Below, one piece after another: positions 1 to 35,452 of a DNA stretch of 64,000 nucleotides. Position numbers and translations under genes: made by a program. Source of the stretch: Escherichia coli (GTDB taxonomy: Bacteria > Pseudomonadota > Gammaproteobacteria > Enterobacterales > Enterobacteriaceae); NCBI RefSeq assembly GCF_965641715.1, contig NZ_OZ282453.1. The stretch is one strand, 5' to 3'. Each line of letters begins with the position of its first letter. Within the stretch, counting starts at the first letter, position 1. Under the pieces are notes generated by a model. The model did no database searches. It worked only from the letters and a program-made list of their open reading frames with translations, and was not told where the DNA came from.

Positions 1-596
1 TAGGGGTAACCTGTAGGGATGTACCACCCACCTTAAAATAAAGGGGTAAAATCGCTTAGAATGCGTTACAGAGCGTCTGAGAAGCCATATTCACAGATTT
101 TACTAAAACCTCAGACTTCTAAGTGGTCTTTTTAACAGGAGGGTTCTTTCTCATGTATCACCCTCTCTTCCCGCCAAGTAAGCTACACAGACCTAGAGAA
201 TATGCCTTCACAGCATCTATATCAGGTCAGATTTAGAGGTCTTGATAGAATCTTCAAAGGTACTTGACAGATAACTATGAAGTTGTTAGGAAGGGGTGTT
301 TAACGGGGGAAGAGATACGATATAACCCGAAGGGGAGAGTATCATCTTAACAGTGATTGTAAGAGTAAAACTGAAAAGATACTTAACAGAACTACCAAGA
401 GGGAGCGATAAGACCAGAGGTAGTGACCTGTTAAACAGTTCGTTTCAAAGCTCTTAAGAGTCTGTTAAGTAAGGTCATGTGAACAATCATATCATTTTGT
501 CAATGCTTTTGTCTTTGACCTAAATCAATAAAATGTATCGTTTGATGTGCTTTTAAACAAAATAGTTAAAAATCTTTTTAGAGGGGCGCTTCGCTT

Positions 597-1265
597 GTGT
601 CACATCCAATAATCCATATCGGTCGTTATCATGGTGGTTCTGATGACTGGCGTACACCGTATCGTCTATTTCATAACCTGCATCGTGAGTATAGCTTCAG
701 TCTAGATGGCGCTGCAACTGAGCATGACGCATTGTTGCCACGGTTCACCGATGATATAAACCGTCAATCATGGGTTGGTGAACGGGTCTTCGTTAACCCG
801 CCGTTTAGCATGGCTGAACAGTTCCTCGCAAAAGCCCCTGAAGCTGATGTGTGTGTATGTCTGGTTCCGCACAGGTCAAAGACAACTTACTGGCTTCGGT
901 GTGTATATACAAACCCCTTCCTGCATGAGATTCGAACATTACACCGAGCGGTTAAATACCTTCCACCAGCAGGAAAGAGAGGTGTTGTAGCGCGTTCACC
1001 ATTTGCAAGCTGTGTTTTGATATACAGGAACACACCCCGTAAACCGAAGGTTGAAATTACCCAGACAATCTATTGTGGCGACACAATGCTTTTACTTGCC
1101 GTGGTTAATAGGGGTGGTTTACGTGGAAGACCTCATATACACGATGCACAGACGCTTGACAGGTTGATTAAAATGCATGACCAAGGGCAATCCGTCAAGA
1201 GTATCGCAGAATCGCTAAGAATGCCTCTAAGCACCACTTACAGGATTGTTCAAAGGTTGAGCTAA
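597..1265 (+). CDS. Phage Dam-family DNA N6-adenine methyltransferase with C-terminal HTH-like segment
   Basis: GTG start with GAGGGG RBS about 11 nt upstream; WRTP...GERVFVNPPFS motif typical of phage Dam-type MTases; C-terminal QSVKSIAESLRMPLSTTYRIVQRL resembles an HTH. Confidence 0.6.
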   Translation: MSHPIIHIGRYHGGSDDWRTPYRLFHNLHREYSFSLDGAATEHDALLPRFTDDINRQSWVGERVFVNPPFSMAEQFLAKAPEADVCVCLVPHRSKTTYWLRCVYTNPFLHEIRTLHRAVKYLPPAGKRGVVARSPFASCVLIYRNTPRKPKVEITQTIYCGDTMLLLAVVNRGGLRGRPHIHDAQTLDRLIKMHDQGQSVKSIAESLRMPLSTTYRIVQRLS

Positions 1266-1300
1266 AATTCTCATATAGAGCACTGATTATGAGAATGTTA

Positions 1301-1333
1301 AAGAGGCGATTTCCCCTTTCTGGGGTTATTCGC
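1301..1333 (+). repeat. About 30-nt element containing CCCCTTTCTGGGG hairpin followed by T-run (copy 1); possible MTase terminator
   Basis: aagaggcgatttcccctttctggggttattcgcttttt; a near copy occurs at 1521..1552. Confidence 0.4.
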
Positions 1334-1520
1334 TTTTTACTGGAAGGGTTATTTTACAGAGGTTTTTCAAACCCCCTCAATAATAAAAAACGAGCAACAA
1401 ACGAAGAGCGAGAAATAAAATATTGAGACTGGTGAACGGGGTCTGTAAAGATTGTTTAAGAAGTCGGTTTAGGGATTGGTAGATGATTCGGATGAAGCAT
1501 CCTCATAACAATACCAATTA

Positions 1521-1552
1521 GAAGGTGGCTCTCCCTTTCTGGGGATATCGCC
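1521..1552 (+). repeat. About 30-nt element containing CCCTTTCTGGGG hairpin (copy 2)
   Basis: gaaggtggctctccctttctggggatatcgcc, similar to 1301..1333. Confidence 0.4.
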
Positions 1553-1575
1553 TTGTATCTTAGTGAGTCCAGGAA

Positions 1576-1760
1576 GTTCTCTGTGAAGGGACTTGTCAGT
1601 CCTTTATATTGGCTAATTACAACTTATTGAAAAATAAGCATTTTTAGAAATCACTGTTAAGGTTACAGAGTTCTCTGTGAAGAGACTCGTCAGCTCTCTA
1701 TATTGGCTAATTACAACTCATTGAAAAATAAGCATTTTTAGAAATTGCTGTCAGAGAGGT
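1576..1760. repeat. Tandem direct repeat, 2 copies of about 94 bp (about 90 percent identical)
   Basis: gttctctgtgaag(g/a)gact(t/c)gtcag...tattggctaattacaac...ttgaaaaataagcatttttagaaat occurs at 1576 and again at 1670. Confidence 0.8.
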
Positions 1761-1833
1761 GAGTACTTGATAGATACAGCTTTCCGGTTCTGTCAAGATA
1801 TTTTTTAATAGATAGCACAAAATGCTAAAGATA

Positions 1834-1863
1834 CCCCTATACCATCACGTACAGGGGGTTTTG
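1834..1863 (+). terminator. Hairpin plus T-run (intrinsic terminator-like), between repeat region and minus-strand small genes
   Basis: cccctataccatcacgtacaggggg followed by ttttg. Confidence 0.35.
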
Positions 1864-1871
1864 AAGGGAGT

Positions 1872-2060
1872 TTAACGGGGTTCTGTGTGGTTATCTGTTC
1901 TGGTCCTGTCCTTGAGGTCAAATGACCATTCACGACCAAACAATCTGAACACGATAAACACCCGAACGATGAAATAGCGGAGCAGAAGACCTGCAATCAG
2001 CCCAACACCTCCACCAGCCCATACATCAGGTGACCCCAGCTCAGGAGGGAGATTTACCAT
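1872..2060 (-). CDS. Small predicted membrane protein (62 aa), unknown function
   Basis: Internal ATG with AGGAA RBS; single hydrophobic helix WAGGGVGLIAGLLLRYFIVRVFIVF; start overlaps the stop of the upstream 34-aa ORF (TAATG). Confidence 0.35.
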   Translation of the reverse strand: MVNLPPELGSPDVWAGGGVGLIAGLLLRYFIVRVFIVFRLFGREWSFDLKDRTRTDNHTEPR

Positions 2061-2164
2061 TAAATTTCCTGTGTGCAATGCAATACCATGTGACATACAT
2101 AGTTGATTCGGTTAGTTGGGCTTGTACCAACCCCTATCGAATAAACCTCATAGCCACGCTTCAT
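2060..2164 (-). CDS. Small ORF (34 aa) translationally coupled to the 62-aa membrane protein
   Basis: ATG preceded by GAGGGGGAA RBS immediately downstream of a minus-strand promoter; MKRGYEVYSIGVGTSPTNRINYVCHMVLHCTQEI. Confidence 0.25.
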   Translation of the reverse strand: MKRGYEVYSIGVGTSPTNRINYVCHMVLHCTQEI

Positions 2165-2186
2165 ATTTCCCCCTCTCTCATAAACC

Positions 2187-2216
2187 ATTATACCACAAAT
2201 GTTACGAAATTGTTAA
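2187..2216 (-). promoter_or_regulatory. Sigma70-like promoter (TTAACA, 18 nt spacer, TATAAT) on minus strand
   Basis: Reverse complement reads ttaacaatttcgtaacatttgtggtataat; drives the 34-aa and 62-aa ORFs. Confidence 0.45.
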
Positions 2217-2222
2217 AAATAC

Positions 2223-2251
2223 TTGACATTAGTCTTTGAAAATGCTAGTAT
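2223..2251 (+). promoter_or_regulatory. Sigma70-like promoter (TTGACA, 17 nt spacer, TAGTAT) on plus strand
   Basis: ttgacattagtctttgaaaatgctagtat, about 50 nt upstream of the 2300 operon; back to back with the minus-strand promoter. Confidence 0.45.
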
Positions 2252-2299
2252 TGTATATAAGTTAACAGAGAATTAACAATTATAAGGACTAGCTTATGA

Positions 2300-2857
2300 A
2301 TGAACGACAGAGAATTTAGAGCGATGCTTCAGGCATCGAGACAACGTAACAGATACAACTCCTACAGCTACACAGACACCCCCACCAGCTACGAACTACC
2401 CAAGCTCACCAGAGCAGAACGCAAAGGCCTTGATGAATTAATTCGTAGCATTACGCCACGAGATAGATTTATGCCAACCAGAAAGAGCACGAAGAACACT
2501 ATTAAAAATTATCTGGCTAACTTTGACAGCTACGAACAATTACCAAGTAAGCTTGATGATGTAATTATCGGATTCTGTAGAAGTGAAGGTCACCCGAAAT
2601 ACAACAAAAAACTATTTTATCTTCTAAAGAATCTTGACGAAATTAACTCAGCCACCGTGACAAATCATCTTCAGCGTCAAGCAACCAGACTTAGCCATGA
2701 ATTACCAAGCGATAAATATTGCGCTTTGCTTGCTGTAATGTGCGCAAAGTTAATTGGTGTTGTTGAGCATCATATTGCCGTTGGAAATATTGAGCCAATG
2801 GAAAACGAGCAACCAGATTTCGAGTTTGACCCGTATTTAGTTACAGAGGAATTTTAA
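2300..2857 (+). CDS. Hypothetical phage protein (185 aa)
   Basis: ORF with AAGGA RBS; first gene of a coupled operon; no recognisable motif. Confidence 0.5.
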   Translation: MNDREFRAMLQASRQRNRYNSYSYTDTPTSYELPKLTRAERKGLDELIRSITPRDRFMPTRKSTKNTIKNYLANFDSYEQLPSKLDDVIIGFCRSEGHPKYNKKLFYLLKNLDEINSATVTNHLQRQATRLSHELPSDKYCALLAVMCAKLIGVVEHHIAVGNIEPMENEQPDFEFDPYLVTEEF

Positions 2858-3136
2858 ATGAAGAAACACACTTTGACCCGTATTTCAGAAGAAGCCTTTC
2901 ACGAGCTTACCCGAATTAAACAGACAACTAACCTCCCTCATCAAACTGTTATGCAGCTTGCAATTGCTAAAGAGGTTACTGAGTCGGATTTACTGAAATA
3001 TCCAGTCTCTAAAGGTCGTAAGCACATCCGAATTACTCAGGACGCTTTAGATACTTTGAAGGCACTTAACAACTTTAAAATTGATATCGCCCGACTATTG
3101 AGTATTAAGATTCACAAGTTAGCAATGGGGGTTTAA
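2858..3136 (+). CDS. Hypothetical protein (92 aa), possible ribbon-helix-helix DNA-binding fold
   Basis: ATG directly after upstream stop; N-terminal HTLTRISEEAFHELTRIKQ...QTVMQLAIAKEV fits a strand-helix-helix pattern (inference). Confidence 0.4.
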   Translation: MKKHTLTRISEEAFHELTRIKQTTNLPHQTVMQLAIAKEVTESDLLKYPVSKGRKHIRITQDALDTLKALNNFKIDIARLLSIKIHKLAMGV

Positions 3137-3351
3137 TGCTATGCGTTACCTTTGAATACCACACGGATAAAATGATTCGCTACATCTCCGACCTCCTGAT
3201 TGAAGGAAACGGATTCGGTGACATCCATAACTCAAAAGATATTTTCATTAAAGCCATTGGCCCAAATGAAGTACTGAAAACAGCAGTTAAACCGGAATGG
3301 TTTGAGCGTCACAAGATTGAATTAGGTTATTGGGGTGAGGAGGTTTTATGA
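3136..3351 (+). CDS. Hypothetical protein (71 aa)
   Basis: TAATG overlap with upstream gene; no recognisable motif. Confidence 0.4.
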   Translation: MLCVTFEYHTDKMIRYISDLLIEGNGFGDIHNSKDIFIKAIGPNEVLKTAVKPEWFERHKIELGYWGEEVL

Positions 3352-3635
3352 AACCTTGGCATGAAGATGTTAGACGATATTTTACAGAACACCTTATCTA
3401 TGATGAATCCAGTGATTCCCTGTGCTGGTCTGATGGAGAGTCAGTCACGATAAACACCGACGACTACGGCAACAAAACATTTAATATAGGCCGATATACT
3501 TTCTACGTGAAATATGTTGTCTGGTTCCTTTATCATGGCTATCAATCCAACAAGCAAATTATCCATCGAAATGGTAACAGAGCCGATACCAGACCAAAAA
3601 ATCTTATGCAAGTCCGAGACTTTAAGAGAAATTAG
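3348..3635 (+). CDS. Small HNH-family endonuclease (95 aa)
   Basis: ATGA overlap with upstream gene, GAGGAGG RBS; motif IHRNGNRADTRPKNL resembles the HNH_3-type H-x-NGN-x-D-x-R-x-x-NL signature. Confidence 0.55.
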   Translation: MKPWHEDVRRYFTEHLIYDESSDSLCWSDGESVTINTDDYGNKTFNIGRYTFYVKYVVWFLYHGYQSNKQIIHRNGNRADTRPKNLMQVRDFKRN

Positions 3636-3642
3636 AAAAACA

Positions 3643-3766
3643 GCTTCTCAGACGCTCTCAATCGCATTCTAACGCAAAAAACTATCTTATTTTAGGGTGG
3701 GTAATACCACTGTACAGGCTACCCCTGAAAAAGACTGTTTAGCTCGTTACAGAGCGATTGAGGAGG
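3643..3766. promoter_or_regulatory. Inverted pair of operator-like 10-bp-periodic motifs flanking about 75 bp upstream of the 3792 gene
   Basis: 3643..3672 (minus orientation) reads ttagaatgcgattgagagcgtctgagaagc; 3745..3766 reads cgttacagagcgattgaggagg; both are related to 56..85. Confidence 0.4.
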
Positions 3767-3791
3767 TCTGGTAAAAAGGAGATTTTAAGAA

Positions 3792-4121
3792 ATGAGAGAA
3801 TTAAACTTCCCACTACAGATTTTTATTGATACCGACACCGCCATGATGATTCAGGCTTTCACTGATGTAGGTGTTAGCATTGACTTTGATAAGTTGTTAG
3901 AGTTAATGACTGATAATGCGGAAAGCATCTCTGACTTTATTCAGTCGGTGGAGTTTAACGAGCCTCGAATGATGCTACCAATTAAAGACAGCAACATGAA
4001 AAGATTGGTTATCGAGCAAACGAACAAATTCAGCGTTAGCCCTGAAAAATATCTCAAGGCGGCTATAGCAATTTTGTACGCTGACAATATTTTGGTGACG
4101 GATTCGAAGGTGGTGCATTAA
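3792..4121 (+). CDS. Hypothetical acidic protein (109 aa)
   Basis: AAGGAG RBS; no recognisable motif. Confidence 0.5.
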   Translation: MRELNFPLQIFIDTDTAMMIQAFTDVGVSIDFDKLLELMTDNAESISDFIQSVEFNEPRMMLPIKDSNMKRLVIEQTNKFSVSPEKYLKAAIAILYADNILVTDSKVVH

Positions 4122-4186
4122 TGGAATTGGTGATTATCTGTTTTGTATTGATTGGTATGATTGCAGGTGCATCTATTAAAGTATAA
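4121..4186 (+). CDS. Tiny hydrophobic peptide (21 aa, MELVIICFVLIGMIAGASIKV), translationally coupled
   Basis: ATG overlaps TAA of upstream gene (TAATG); entirely hydrophobic single-helix peptide. Confidence 0.25.
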   Translation: MELVIICFVLIGMIAGASIKV

Positions 4187-4211
4187 ATGTTACCAATCTG
4201 TTAAAAATCTG

Positions 4212-4240
4212 TTGACAAATAACCTTGAGCATGACATAAT
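4212..4240 (+). promoter_or_regulatory. Near-consensus sigma70 promoter (TTGACA, 17 nt spacer, CATAAT)
   Basis: ttgacaaataaccttgagcatgacataat. Confidence 0.55.
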
Positions 4241-4246
4241 TGTATA

Positions 4247-4503
4247 TATATGAGGATAGTCTTCTATCCGAAGTCTATAGGGAGAGCAATTCTCCTTGAA
4301 TTAAAATATTAATCATCTCTACATCAATGATAACTATATTCTGAGTTGGTGAGGTATGTTCTATACCGAACATTCTGAAAGGTGCAATGCTTTTCGTCAT
4401 GGCCTTTCAGTTTAGTCTGAGAGGCTATCTCAAAAAGTGCTTAATCATTCATTCATTGAATCCTTTACAGCTTTGCCCTAATCATGAGTTAGGGCGTTTC
4501 TTT
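4247..4503 (+). ncRNA. Candidate small RNA or structured leader (about 255 nt) from promoter to first intrinsic terminator
   Basis: No ORF of 60 aa or more in about 460 nt; several stable hairpins (4254..4269, 4356..4373); ends at terminator 4475..4503. Confidence 0.3.
4475..4503 (+). terminator. Intrinsic terminator (7-bp GC-containing stem plus T-run)
   Basis: gccctaatcatgagttagggc then gtttcttt. Confidence 0.5.
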
Positions 4504-4574
4504 AAGAGTTTTAAGCAGAGCTTTTAAAGAAAGTTTTTCCTGAAACTTCGTTAACGTTATAAAGCAAACCTTCA

Positions 4575-4610
4575 AAGCCCTTCACAGATTCAATGTTTAG
4601 GGCTTTTCTT
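4575..4610 (+). terminator. Second hairpin plus T-run (terminator-like)
   Basis: aagcccttcacagattcaatgtttagggctt then ttctt. Confidence 0.4.
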
Positions 4611-4707
4611 AATAGAGCATCTTTAATAAATCGTTAAGTCATCTTCTAAGTGTATTGGCGTTGAAGGTGCTCTGTTAAGAAATAAACCACACTTAGAGGA
4701 AGTTATA

Positions 4708-5418
4708 ATGACAAACGATTTATATATTAACGGTAAAAAGGTTGATAGCTTCGGTGACTGGTCGCCACAGACTGAACATCCAGCTATCACTATTCAGCGC
4801 AAAGAACACGATGAAAGAATTGCACTTGAGCAAGAAATCCGAATGTCACCAAAGGTAATTTCCTTTGTGGCTCCTGAGCCTCAAGATATGCCGGATATTT
4901 GCAAAACTGAAGCATTGCTTGAGCTTGAAAAGAAATTTTACCCAGCTTTAAAAGCACAGCGTCTTAAACTAGATGACGCTTACAGTAAAGTTACCCTGAT
5001 GCAATCAGCTATTGAGCCATCAGAATTTGAGATTCAGGATGAATTGTCACAGAAACCATTTGTCTATTACCAATATGAAGACAATGATGGTTTTGGTACT
5101 TTTCCTGAGAATATCCCAGACGTGATTAATAATCCGATGGATGGATATCGAATTGTGAAGATGGTTAAGGCATCAAGAGGTGCTGGTCAGTTTATTTACA
5201 TGACTAATAAGAGCGATGAAGAACTCGCTGAACTTGCTAGACAGAACATCTTGGCATCACGTAACAAGCAGCTTGATAATGTTAAGTTGTATCTCTCAAG
5301 AGAGCTTCAGGCTATGAAAGACCTTGTGAAAGAATATGAAGATGCTAAGAAGATTGCTATGCAAGCCGATATTGAGCAGTTAGTGAAGATTTCTAGCAAA
5401 TATGCAAAGGCTATTTAA
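4708..5418 (+). CDS. Hypothetical phage protein (236 aa), charged with coiled-coil-like C-terminus
   Basis: GAGGAAG RBS; first gene of a co-directional module ending at 8794. Confidence 0.5.
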   Translation: MTNDLYINGKKVDSFGDWSPQTEHPAITIQRKEHDERIALEQEIRMSPKVISFVAPEPQDMPDICKTEALLELEKKFYPALKAQRLKLDDAYSKVTLMQSAIEPSEFEIQDELSQKPFVYYQYEDNDGFGTFPENIPDVINNPMDGYRIVKMVKASRGAGQFIYMTNKSDEELAELARQNILASRNKQLDNVKLYLSRELQAMKDLVKEYEDAKKIAMQADIEQLVKISSKYAKAI

Positions 5419-5437
5419 TTATGATGTGAGGTGAAGA

Positions 5438-5653
5438 ATGATTGATTTAACTGAACGCTATGAAGTTATTAAGTCTGTTTGTGAGAACTTAAAGCTTCAG
5501 ACTAAACCAAAGCTACGAATTAAAAATCAGCATCAAGTTATCACCTCACACAAACCAAAGGTTAGAAGGATTCCTTCATGGTGTATTGACCGTGTTCCTG
5601 CTGATGCTCAATTAATTGGTGAGTCTGGTTCTTACACTTATATCCTTCATTAA
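5438..5653 (+). CDS. Hypothetical phage protein (71 aa)
   Basis: GAGGTGAAG RBS; immediately upstream of the tape-measure-like gene. Confidence 0.45.
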   Translation: MIDLTERYEVIKSVCENLKLQTKPKLRIKNQHQVITSHKPKVRRIPSWCIDRVPADAQLIGESGSYTYILH

Positions 5654-5734
5654 AAATTACAAAGGGGAGAGATTAGCCTTAATTGGTTAGTCTTTCCCTT
5701 TTTCGTATATGAACACTTAAGAGGTGAAACATGA

Positions 5735-35417: not shown

Positions 35418-35452
35418 GACCGGATGCGGCGTGAACGCCTTTTCCGGTCTAC
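35418..35452. repeat. REP element
   Basis: gaccggatgcggcgtgaacgccttttccggtctac. Confidence 0.6.

What the first reader, a model, noticed from the sequence alone, without database searches (positions are those of the whole stretch)
56..85. 30-nt motif with 10-bp periodicity recurring in three places (operator-like sites)
ttagaatgcgttacagagcgtctgagaagc at 56..85 recurs almost exactly in inverted orientation at 3643..3672 and partially in direct orientation at 3745..3766. The latter two bracket the region just upstream of the 3792 gene. The 10-bp sub-repeats suggest cooperative binding sites for a dimeric DNA-binding protein, possibly the putative ribbon-helix-helix protein at 2858..3136.
Basis: seen in the sequence. 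Interest (0 to 1): 0.5.

Follow-up and report, generated by a model that had tools for sequence, protein, structure and literature searches.

The report
Phage T5-type repeat in coliphage satellite
The repeated 30-base motif is real and is this E. coli satellite-like element's copy of a roughly 45-base element, also found in phage T5's "injection stop" region, many large lytic phages and IncX plasmids, that most likely acts as a protein docking site, though what binds it is unknown.

Summary
Observation confirmed. 56-85 recurs inverted at 3643-3672 (27/30; none expected by chance), and a significant partial copy lies at 3742-3771. The true repeat is about 115 nt (1-118 vs 3610-3730).

Copies 2 and 3 form a roughly 130-nt imperfect palindrome that fills the HNH-orf3792 spacer. 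This spacer is nearly invariant in the relatives examined, while the flanking genes drift or are replaced.

The window's first 10.5 kb is an AT-rich integrated element at wrbA. It carries a serine recombinase and Felixounavirus-like tape-measure and baseplate genes.

The motif core is three phased 10-bp units (TTAGAATGCG-WTNNAGAGCG-TYTNAGAG). It is homologous to the T5 IRD/IRD' repeats in the "injection stop signal" region. It also occurs in Ounavirinae, KVP40-like and jumbo phages, and next to the IncX plasmid origin. It is almost absent from bacterial chromosomes.

Best reading: a cis-acting, cooperatively bound DNA site. It cannot explain the motif in the phages and plasmids, where no homologue was found.

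Rivals: an RNA hairpin that hides the orf3792 ribosome-binding site; a conserved MRxRAF mini-ORF; an origin or packaging signal.

The parts
1..118 (+). Copy 1 of the long repeat, cut by the window start. Relatives continue upstream with ...TTTTAGGGGTAG.
   Evidence: Found in 99 of 5426 complete E. coli genomes.
47..85 (+). Core of copy 1: an A-tract, CGC, then three 10-bp units TTAGAATGCG / TTACAGAGCG / TCTGAGAAGC.
   Evidence: nhmmer hit at 47-82, E 3e-8, with a profile built from phage copies.
3610..3730 (-). Copy 2 of the long repeat, inverted. Its distal 26 nt overlap the 3' end of the HNH gene.
3643..3676 (-). Core of copy 2: TTAGAATGCG / ATTGAGAGCG / TCTGAGAAGC.
   Evidence: 3 mismatches; E 3.5e-6.
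3742..3771 (+). Partial copy 3 (GCTCGTTACAGAGCGATTGAGGAGGTCTGG). It is the 3' arm of the palindrome.
3644..3781 (+). Imperfect palindrome / long hairpin formed by copies 2 and 3, centred on CTGTACAG (3710-3717). Its base pairs GCUUC (3644-3648) with the AGGAG ribosome-binding site of orf3792 (3777-3781).
   Evidence: RNA fold -49.4 kcal/mol, z -5.15; DNA fold z -4.6. Nearly invariant in 10 aligned relatives. At least 95% identical in 251 of the 292 complete E. coli genomes that carry it.
2858..3136 (+). 92-aa predicted tandem ribbon-helix-helix protein, the candidate ligand.
   Evidence: AlphaFold2 pLDDT 91, beta-alpha-alpha twice. Foldseek best matches are F relaxosome chains, DndE and AvtR. 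No Pfam or PHROG match. The family is limited to enterobacterial relatives of this element.
2223..2251 (+). Promoter-like site (TTGACA-17-TAGTAT) that probably drives the operon 2300-3635 and reads through the palindrome into orf3792.
   Evidence: No terminator-like site is predicted between 2300 and 3792 on the + strand.
3348..3635 (+). HNH endonuclease gene that abuts copy 2. It is replaced by other DNA in relatives L012 and L020, with the junction at the edge of the motif.
3792..4121 (+). orf3792 (109 aa, no family match), the gene immediately downstream of the palindrome. It is present in the relatives whose sequence covers this region.
86..596 (.). Left non-coding region rich in TTAACAG/CTGTTAA repeats. 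It shares short stretches with the 1.65-kb non-coding repeat region of Felixounavirus phages.
8814..10457 (-). Large serine recombinase at the right end of the element, next to wrbA (10509-11114). It sets the context as an integrated mobile element.

Best explanation
The motif is a cis-acting DNA site made of three 10-bp units on one face of the helix. I propose it is bound cooperatively by a small DNA-bending protein.

It belongs to a roughly 45-bp element that is conserved across mobile DNA: the T5 IRD/IRD' repeats, Ounavirinae, KVP40-like and jumbo phages, and IncX plasmids. The satellite-like element in window 1-10457 has built it into a roughly 115-bp repeat. One copy lies at the element's left end. 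A second, inverted copy 3.5 kb away combines with a partial third copy to form a roughly 130-bp palindrome in front of orf3792.

In this element the most likely ligand is its own 92-aa TraY/AvtR-like tandem ribbon-helix-helix protein, encoded about 500 bp upstream in the same operon. Occupancy of the palindrome, and possibly bridging to the distal copy, would gate read-through into orf3792. Once transcribed, the palindrome folds as RNA and hides the orf3792 ribosome-binding site, which adds a second layer of control.

Shown: the repeats, their periodicity, their conservation, their homology to the phage and plasmid copies, the predicted fold of the protein, its co-occurrence with the site, and the predicted hairpin.

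Inferred: that a protein binds, which protein it is, and the regulatory outcome.
For: - The repeats are statistically real.
- The core has 10-bp units with consensus TTWNARWGCG in 27 distinct copies.
- It matches T5-like phages inside the terminal repeat. In T5 it lies at 9343-9382, within the annotated injection stop signal. That position falls within Davison's IRD'spacerIRC' (9332-9462), which has an inverted partner 3180 bp away.
- The core is also present in an IMG/VR contig whose length matches KVP40, in 121Q-type and other jumbo phages, and in Ounavirinae.
- It is present in IncX plasmids beside the pir origin.
- In the Kolesnikvirus SeKF_13, TTAGAA occurs 12 times on one strand against 1.7 expected, in clusters spaced 10-12 bp.
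- In six phage contexts read by eye, the motif sits between an intrinsic terminator and the next promoter-like site.
- The palindrome is almost invariant in 10 aligned relatives, while flanking genes are 74-90% identical or replaced. It is at least 95% identical in 251 of 292 E. coli genomes, whereas most matches to the 4.2-kb region are 80-95% identical.
- The 92-aa protein has a high-confidence tandem RHH model with TraY-, DndE- and AvtR-like fold matches.
- In L012 a 36%-identical homologue keeps the strand residues HT.TR and IRIT and lies upstream of the unchanged site.
- The protein gene is present in the six other loci whose sequence reaches that far upstream (L001, L012, L017, L019, L022, L045).
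Against: - No binding data exist.
- The core motif is conserved in phages and plasmids where no homologue of the 92-aa protein was found. The element-encoded protein therefore cannot be the general ligand, and a shared host or helper factor, or a function that does not involve protein binding, may apply here too.
- The motif is essentially absent from bacterial chromosomes: only 5 loci among the representative genomes of about 100,000 species. A host transcription factor with chromosomal targets of the same sequence is therefore unlikely.
- The Foldseek E-values are weak (0.015 at best).
- Copy 1 is missing from L017 and L019 and is found in only 99 genomes against 292 for the palindrome. Long-range pairing of the copies is therefore not essential.
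- No conserved promoter overlaps the sites.
- The substitution pattern in the core is also compatible with a tiny ORF.
Confidence: 0.45

Rival explanations
1. Same DNA site, different ligand. The core is recognised by a factor supplied by the incoming helper phage or by general host machinery, and it works in DNA that has just entered a cell. The satellite copies it to sense or exploit helper infection.
For: - Nearly identical cores occur in unrelated replicons whose flanks are not homologous.
- In T5 the core lies in the first-step-transfer DNA.
- In the jumbo phage fEgEco12 it lies 6.7 kb into a 20,993-bp terminal repeat.
- In an IncX4 plasmid it lies upstream of the operon that runs towards taxA, in what I take to be the leading region.
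- The satellite's tail genes and left non-coding region resemble Felixounavirus, and Ounavirinae carry the motif within TTAGAA arrays.
Against: - No candidate factor was identified.
- The motif is virtually absent from host chromosomes.
- KVP40-type phages are not known to me to have terminal repeats (from memory).
- The position of oriT and the leading-strand polarity in IncX were inferred, not shown.
Confidence: 0.3
2. RNA-level element. The copy 2 / copy 3 palindrome matters mainly as an intercistronic RNA hairpin that sequesters the ribosome-binding site of orf3792, or serves as a processing site, so that orf3792 is translated only after the hairpin is cleaved or melted.
For: - The RNA fold is -49.4 kcal/mol with z -5.15, and no shuffle folds as well. 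AGGAG 3777-3781 pairs with 3644-3648.
- No terminator is predicted between the upstream operon and orf3792.
- The spacer is extremely conserved.
- The apical hairpin is re-shaped, not lost, in L012 and L020.
Against: - The stem is invariant among relatives, so covariation cannot be tested.
- Copy 1 and the phage and plasmid copies have no such partner arm.
- There is no Rfam match.
- A DNA palindrome gives the same fold score.
Confidence: 0.25
3. The conserved core is a miniature coding gene or leader peptide, ATG CGN TNN AGR GCG TTY TAR = M-R-[F/L/Y/S]-R-[A/S/T]-F-stop. Its translation, or the peptide itself, is the function.
For: - The frame is kept in about 20 of 33 distinct copies, with TAG and TAA alternating.
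- CGT/CGA, AGA/AGG and TTT/TTC changes are silent.
- Diverged copies (AGG AGC TTC TAG) keep both the frame and the stop.
- Conservation falls immediately after the stop.
- Third codon positions carry less information: 1.16 bits against 1.57 and 1.48.
Against: - No Shine-Dalgarno sequence or conserved promoter lies upstream.
- The five bases before the ATG are conserved more strongly than the codons.
- TGA is never used as the stop.
- One IncX1 copy lacks the ATG.
- Both satellite copies lose the stop (24-aa and 11-aa ORFs), and copy 2 is antisense to its operon.
- The Ounavirinae TTAGAA arrays are not coding.
Confidence: 0.1
4. The repeats are part of a replication-origin, priming or packaging signal borrowed from the helper, which lets a satellite with no recognisable replication or terminase genes be copied and packaged.
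For: - No replication initiator, capsid or terminase family was found among ten of the element's proteins.
- The motif neighbours origin-type features elsewhere: iterons, DnaA boxes and a sequence I recall as primosome-assembly-like in IncX, and DnaA boxes in T5.
- The element's left non-coding region resembles the iteron-rich non-coding region of Felixounavirus, which are terminal-repeat phages.
Against: - There is no DnaA box with one mismatch or fewer anywhere in the element.
- The best-conserved copy lies inside an operon, not beside the repeat-rich left end.
- In T5 and fEgEco12 the motif is kilobases from the terminal-repeat boundaries.
- According to Davison, T5 origins map near the genome centre.
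- I could not place the Felixounavirus termini relative to the repeat region.
Confidence: 0.15

Closest known systems
IRD / IRD' inverted repeats of phage T5 Repeat Regions 2 and 3 (first-step-transfer DNA, 'injection stop signal'), as described by Wang et al. 2005 and Davison (bioRxiv 10.1101/866236)
   Same: The core sequence is homologous: T5 9343-9382 is cgcgTTAGAATGCGATCTAGGACGTTTTAGG. Both occur as an inverted pair a few kb apart (3180 bp in T5, 1851-4258 bp in relatives, 3.5 kb here). Both lie in non-coding DNA after a terminator. An HNH endonuclease gene is inserted beside the repeats in both.
   Different: Here the repeat is in an integrated chromosomal element, not in a virion terminal repeat. 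The paired DnaA boxes, the 52-bp spacer to IRC and the LexA-type palindrome that accompany IRD in T5 are absent. The third 10-bp unit is changed (TCTGAGAAGC instead of TTTTAGAG). A partial third copy creates a local palindrome. The function of IRD in T5 is itself unknown.
Binding-site arrays of ribbon-helix-helix proteins (F TraY at sbyA/oriT, Arc/Mnt, CopG, ParR-parC, AvtR)
   Same: A small RHH protein is encoded next to short sub-sites repeated about one helical turn apart, in direct and inverted arrangement. The predicted fold is a single-chain tandem RHH, as I recall for TraY and AvtR. From memory, TraY sub-sites are GA(G/T)A, and the satellite units contain GAGA-N6-GAGA.
   Different: No sequence homology to any of these proteins. 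Binding is untested. The site is not at an oriT and does not demonstrably overlap a promoter. The core site also exists where this protein family was not found.
Mobile regulatory cassettes of T4-type phages (PeSL, Arbiol et al. 2010; recalled from memory)
   Same: A short conserved non-coding module recurs between genes in early, plastic regions of large lytic phages, with non-homologous flanks.
   Different: PeSLs are described as an early promoter plus a stem-loop. This core has no conserved sigma-70 hexamers or terminator hairpin, and it extends to plasmids and satellites.
Single-stranded-DNA promoters and priming signals of plasmid leading regions (Frpo/ssi type; recalled from memory)
   Same: In IncX plasmids the motif lies in a hairpin-prone stretch next to a sequence I recall as primosome-assembly-like, in what I infer to be the leading region. 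In the satellite it forms a long imperfect hairpin directly upstream of a gene.
   Different: I could not place -35 and -10 elements on the correct arm. The IncX4 fold is not significant (z -1.6). The phages and the satellite are double-stranded DNA elements.

Membership tests
T5 IRD/IRD' repeat | Sequence homology of the repeat core | tested here: met
   BLAST of window 1-130 hits T5-like phages at 84-88% over 42-45 nt. T5 itself has the core at 9343-9382.
T5 IRD/IRD' repeat | Two copies in inverted orientation, kilobases apart | tested here: met
   56-85 (+) and 3643-3672 (-). T5 has 3180 bp between partners. L023 has copies at 655-695 (-) and 4060-4083 (+).
T5 IRD/IRD' repeat | Located in the long terminal repeat (pre-early region) of a Demerecviridae genome | tested here: not met
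   The window copy is in an integrated element beside wrbA that carries a serine recombinase and Felixounavirus-like tail genes.
T5 IRD/IRD' repeat | Paired DnaA boxes and an IRC partner at a fixed 52-bp spacing | tested here: not met
   No TTATCCACA with one mismatch or fewer anywhere in 1-10500. No CTGT-N8-ACAG palindrome near the motif.
Ribbon-helix-helix operator array | An RHH protein is encoded by the element | tested here: met
   Prediction only: pLDDT 91, E4-10/H/H and E54-60/H/H. Fold matches to F relaxosome chains, DndE and AvtR, with probability up to 1.0 and E 0.015.
Ribbon-helix-helix operator array | Two or more sub-sites about one helical turn apart | tested here: met
   Three 10-bp units per copy. 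TTAGAA clusters at 10-12 bp spacing in Ounavirinae.
Ribbon-helix-helix operator array | Protein and site co-occur and co-vary | tested here: inconclusive
   They co-occur in the window and in the six other loci that reach far enough upstream, and the strand residues are kept at 36% identity. However, the core site also occurs in phages and plasmids where no homologue was found.
Ribbon-helix-helix operator array | Demonstrated sequence-specific binding and repression | not testable with these tools
   Needs EMSA or footprinting and reporter assays.
Described structured RNA (Rfam 15) | Match to a covariance model | tested here: not met
   No hit at the motif in window 1-14000 at E<=1, nor in the T5, IncX, KVP40-like, L031 or L033 loci.
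Sigma-70 promoter | -35 and -10 hexamers at 16-18 bp, conserved among copies | tested here: inconclusive
   The scan gives 33-62 TTAAAA-18-TAGAAT (9/12) and, on the minus strand, 3716-3689 TGTACA-16-TAAAAT (9/12). Reading the aligned phage and plasmid copies by eye, I found no -35 at the same place.
Leader peptide / minigene | Start codon, fixed short frame and stop conserved; ribosome-binding site present | tested here: not met
   The frame MRxRAF-stop is kept in about 20 of 33 copies elsewhere. Both window copies lack the stop at codon 7, and no copy has a Shine-Dalgarno sequence.
Iteron-type replication origin | Array of same-orientation repeats next to an initiator gene, with DnaA boxes or an AT-rich unwinding region | tested here: not met
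   Only three units per copy. No initiator family was found among ten proteins. No DnaA box.

The most novel reading that the evidence does not exclude
The T5 'IRD' core is not a T5-specific injection-stop feature. It is a mobilome-wide establishment element, either a docking site for one conserved cellular machine or the smallest conserved phage/plasmid gene (the hexapeptide MRxRAF). It sits in DNA that enters the cell first: T5 first-step-transfer DNA, the long terminal repeats of jumbo phages, and the IncX leading region. A previously undescribed family of E. coli satellites of Felixounavirus-type lytic phages has captured it as its control switch.
Probability: 0.15. Interest if true: 0.85.

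Novelty: new variant of a known kind. Interest (0 to 1): 0.6.

Why it matters
The repeats of the T5 injection-stop region have been discussed since 1987 without an assigned function. The one comparative study I read (Davison's preprint) covers 25 T5-like phages only.

The IRD core is conserved by itself in Ounavirinae, KVP40-like and 350-kb jumbo phages, IncX plasmids and a widespread E. coli integrated element, without the DnaA boxes. This separates it from the DnaA-anchoring model. It argues for a general function, and it provides simpler systems (a 33-kb plasmid, a 10-kb satellite) in which to test that function.

For the satellite, the motif marks the most strongly constrained non-coding DNA of the element. 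It is the obvious place to look for the switch that couples the element to its helper. The element has no recognisable capsid, terminase or replication genes, yet it carries Felixounavirus-like tape-measure and baseplate genes.

Tried and rejected
**Database and annotation searches with no result**
- Rfam on the window and on six phage and plasmid loci: nothing.
- tRNA and tmRNA scan: none.
- Full-text search for the motif strings found only chance primer matches.
- Literature searches for satellites of Felix O1 / Ounavirinae found nothing relevant.

**Readings considered and dropped**
- Invertible or excisable segment bounded by the inverted copies. The arms are only about 75% identical, the orientation is the same in L001 and L045, and copy 1 is absent from L017 and L019.
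- Methyltransferase HTH as the ligand. The gene is absent from L017, L019 and L045, which keep the motif.
- Host transcription-factor site. The motif is virtually absent from chromosomes. By-eye comparisons from memory with Lrp, RcsB, OmpR, PmrA, IHF, Fis, DnaA, Tus/Ter and boxA consensus sequences gave no convincing fit. These were leads, not tests.
- Sigma-70 promoter with TAGAAT as the -10 element. I found no conserved -35 (and the alignments).
- Terminase recognition site. I could not locate the Felixounavirus termini relative to the repeat region, and the motif is far from the repeat boundaries in T5 and fEgEco12.
- Frpo-type single-stranded-DNA promoter. The hexamers fall on the wrong arm, and the IncX4 fold is not significant.

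Full report
**1. The observation**

The 30-mer at 56-85 recurs at 3643-3672 on the other strand with three mismatches. None of 100 dinucleotide-preserving shuffles of the window gave a match.

The third site shares an exact 11-mer, GTTACAGAGCG, at 65-75 and 3746-3756. Its wider similarity to copies 1 and 2 was reached in 0 and 5 of 2000 shuffles.

Alignment shows a repeat of about 115 nt, 1-118 (+) against 3610-3730 (-), roughly 73-75% identical and cut by the window start. In relatives it continues a few bases further upstream.

Copies 2 and 3 point away from each other around CTGTACAG (3710-3717). Together they fill the 156-nt spacer between the HNH gene (stop at 3635) and orf3792 (ATG at 3792).

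**2. The context**

Window 1-10457 is about 40% G+C, against about 52% for the rest. It ends with a 547-aa serine recombinase gene next to wrbA, yccJ and agp, identified by my reading of the translations.

The element encodes:
- a Dam-type methyltransferase fused to a resolvase-type HTH;
- an HNH endonuclease;
- a tape-measure protein;
- a Dit-like baseplate protein.

The remaining proteins match no family. No capsid, terminase or replication family was found among the ten proteins scanned.

The tape-measure and baseplate genes are 88-94% identical in DNA to Felixounavirus phages. Parts of the first 4.2 kb occur in 511 of 5426 complete E. coli genomes. In one genome a relative lies in yecE, so the family uses several integration sites.

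The left non-coding region (86-596) is rich in TTAACAG. It shares stretches such as GATAAGACCAGAG.TAGTGACC..TGTTAA with the 1.65-kb gene-free, repeat-filled region of Felixounavirus.

I read the element as a satellite-like island of Felix O1-type lytic phages. I found no paper describing it.

**3. Conservation within the family**

In ten aligned relatives the spacer from 3647 to 3791 is almost invariant. The neighbouring genes are 74-90% identical, and in L012 and L020 the upstream HNH gene is replaced, with the junction exactly at the motif edge.

Across complete E. coli genomes the 156-nt spacer is found in 292. It is full-length in 291 and at least 95% identical in 251. Most matches to the whole 4.2 kb are only 80-95% identical.

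Copy 1 is found in 99 genomes and is absent from L017 and L019. An E. albertii relative (L045) has both copies in the same arrangement.

The palindrome is therefore the constrained part, and the distal copy is optional.

**4. Homology outside the family**

The core matches T5-like phages inside their terminal repeats. In T5 it lies at 9343-9382, about 50 nt after a terminator and inside the annotated injection stop signal.

This position falls within the 131-bp IRD'spacerIRC' that Davison places at 9332-9462. Its inverted partner is 3180 bp away in T5 and 1851-4258 bp away in relatives. That parallels the 3.5 kb seen here.

A pattern scan of IMG/VR and further BLAST searches found the same core, with unrelated flanks, in:
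- a 244,834-bp contig whose length matches KVP40;
- 121Q-type Asteriusvirus, where it lies 6.7 kb into a 20,993-bp terminal repeat;
- other phages of 220-250 kb;
- Ounavirinae.

It also occurs in about 1500 plasmid records, judged to be mostly IncX from the examples I inspected. There it lies in the non-coding stretch beside the pir origin and upstream of the operon that runs towards taxA.

A scan of one genome per species for about 100,000 species found only five loci. Two are E. albertii satellites, one lies next to another serine recombinase, and two are tiny contigs. The element is therefore specific to mobile DNA.

The satellite lacks the DnaA boxes and the LexA-type palindrome that flank IRD in T5. 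The core therefore stands on its own.

**5. Anatomy of the core**

Twenty-seven distinct copies give the consensus AAAA.CGC TTAGAATGCG WTNNAGAGCG TTTTAG. This is three 10-bp units of the form TTWNARWGCG, and conservation collapses after the last TAG or TAA.

In the Kolesnikvirus SeKF_13 the core is one of five clusters of two or three TTAGAA boxes spaced 10-12 bp apart. All are on one strand: 12 copies against 1.7 expected. They lie within a 1.2-kb gene-free region that also holds 24 TTAACA boxes at multiples of about 10.5 bp. This is the signature of proteins binding along one face of the DNA.

In six phage contexts read by eye, the core lies between an intrinsic terminator and the next promoter-like site.

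The same 21 bases also read as ATG CGN TNN AGR GCG TTY TAR, which is MR[FLYS]R[AST]F-stop. Silent changes occur, and the frame is kept in diverged copies.

I rank this reading lower for these reasons:
- there is no ribosome-binding site;
- the bases before the ATG are the most conserved of all;
- TGA never occurs as the stop;
- the satellite copies lose the stop;
- the Ounavirinae arrays are not coding.

**6. The nominated protein**

The 92-aa product of 2858-3136 has no Pfam, PHROG or PDB sequence match. With 19 homologues it models at pLDDT 91 as beta-alpha-alpha twice.

Its best fold matches are chains of the F-plasmid relaxosome, DndE and AvtR. I take the relaxosome chains to be TraY, a single-chain double RHH.

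The family is restricted to Escherichia, Citrobacter and Salmonella. In L012 a 36%-identical homologue keeps the strand residues HT.TR and IRIT and lies about 460 nt upstream of the unchanged palindrome. No homologue was detected near the motif in the phage and plasmid loci held.

It cannot explain the element at large.

The methyltransferase HTH is dispensable.

**7. RNA-level reading**

Region 3636-3795 folds as one long hairpin: RNA -49.4 kcal/mol with z -5.15, and DNA with z -4.6. The AGGAG of orf3792 pairs with 3644-3648. No terminator is predicted between the promoter-like site at 2223-2251 and orf3792.

The palindrome would therefore be transcribed and could mask the ribosome-binding site. 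The stem is invariant among relatives, so covariation cannot decide between the DNA and RNA readings. The two may coexist.

**8. Verdict**

I commit to a cooperatively bound DNA site, with the element's RHH protein as the most likely local ligand, at confidence 0.45.

The rivals are:
- a shared helper or host ligand (0.3);
- an RNA hairpin (0.25, not exclusive);
- an origin or packaging signal (0.15);
- a mini-ORF (0.1).

The kind of thing is known, namely the T5 IRD repeats and RHH site arrays. Its presence in a satellite and its breadth across mobile DNA did not appear in the literature I could search.

Noticed in passing
window 1-10457: AT-rich integrated element at wrbA. It has a large serine recombinase, a Dam methyltransferase-HTH fusion, an HNH endonuclease, and tape-measure and Dit-like baseplate genes 88-94% identical in DNA to Felixounavirus phages. 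No capsid, terminase or replication family was found. Parts of it occur in 511 of 5426 complete E. coli genomes, and relatives sit at other sites (yecE). It looks like an undescribed satellite family of Felix O1-type lytic phages that carries its own tail-length and baseplate genes.
   Followed up: partly
window 61-81 and 3666-3646 (-); L033 4784-4804; L004 9357-9377: The motif core reads as a mini-ORF, MR[FLYS]R[AST]F-stop, in about 20 of 33 distinct copies from phages and plasmids. Changes are silent and TAG alternates with TAA. The two window copies extend to 24 and 11 codons.
   Followed up: partly
window 1575-1657 and 1669-1751: Two tandem 83-nt direct repeats, 90% identical, in the non-coding stretch between the methyltransferase gene and the 2223 promoter. 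Their function is unknown.
   Followed up: no
window 2187-2220 and 4175-4208: Both strong promoter-like sites (TTGACA at 2223 and at 4212) are preceded by the same 34-nt box, AAATGTTAC-N5-TGTTAAAAAT. This gives TGTTA direct repeats 11 bp apart. From memory this resembles ArcA-type sites and the CTGTTAA arrays of Felixounavirus.
   Followed up: no
window 4212-4496: A promoter-like site (TTGACA-17-CATAAT, with TG) is followed by about 250 nt without an ORF and then a terminator-like hairpin at 4474-4496. This is a candidate small RNA gene.
   Followed up: no
window 1834-2216 (-): A divergent promoter-like site (TTAACA-18-TATAAT, 11/12), a 74-aa ORF that looks hydrophobic (1872-2096) and a terminator-like hairpin (1857-1834) on the minus strand. 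This may be a small membrane protein gene.
   Followed up: no
L004 (T5) 9400-9720: Next to the IRD' core, the T5 injection-stop region carries CTGTATAAATATACAG, which matches the LexA-box pattern, and repeats of the type AATGAGAATCATTATCATT, which resemble Fur boxes. Both readings are by eye and from memory. They sit alongside the published DnaA boxes.
   Followed up: no
L041 3001-3034; L042 about 3000-3045 and 3185-3230; L043 15239-15272: IncX plasmids carry one or two copies of the core between the pir origin (iterons, DnaA boxes, and a sequence I recall as primosome-assembly-like) and the operon leading towards taxA and oriT. In IncX1 the flank folds with the motif into a long single-strand hairpin (z -4.2).
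   Followed up: partly
L035 2887-4315; L037 864-2526: Ounavirinae have a 1.2-1.65-kb gene-free region between convergent operons. It is packed with phased TTAACA/TGTTAA boxes and with TTAGAA boxes (mainly in L035) or TTGTTAG, CTTAAAAG and CTATAAAG boxes (L037). I found no description of it.
   Followed up: partly
window 15718-15750 and 35420-35452: A 33-nt inverted pair, 91% complementary (GCCGGATAAGGCGTT...). It looks like an ordinary E. coli REP element.
   Followed up: no
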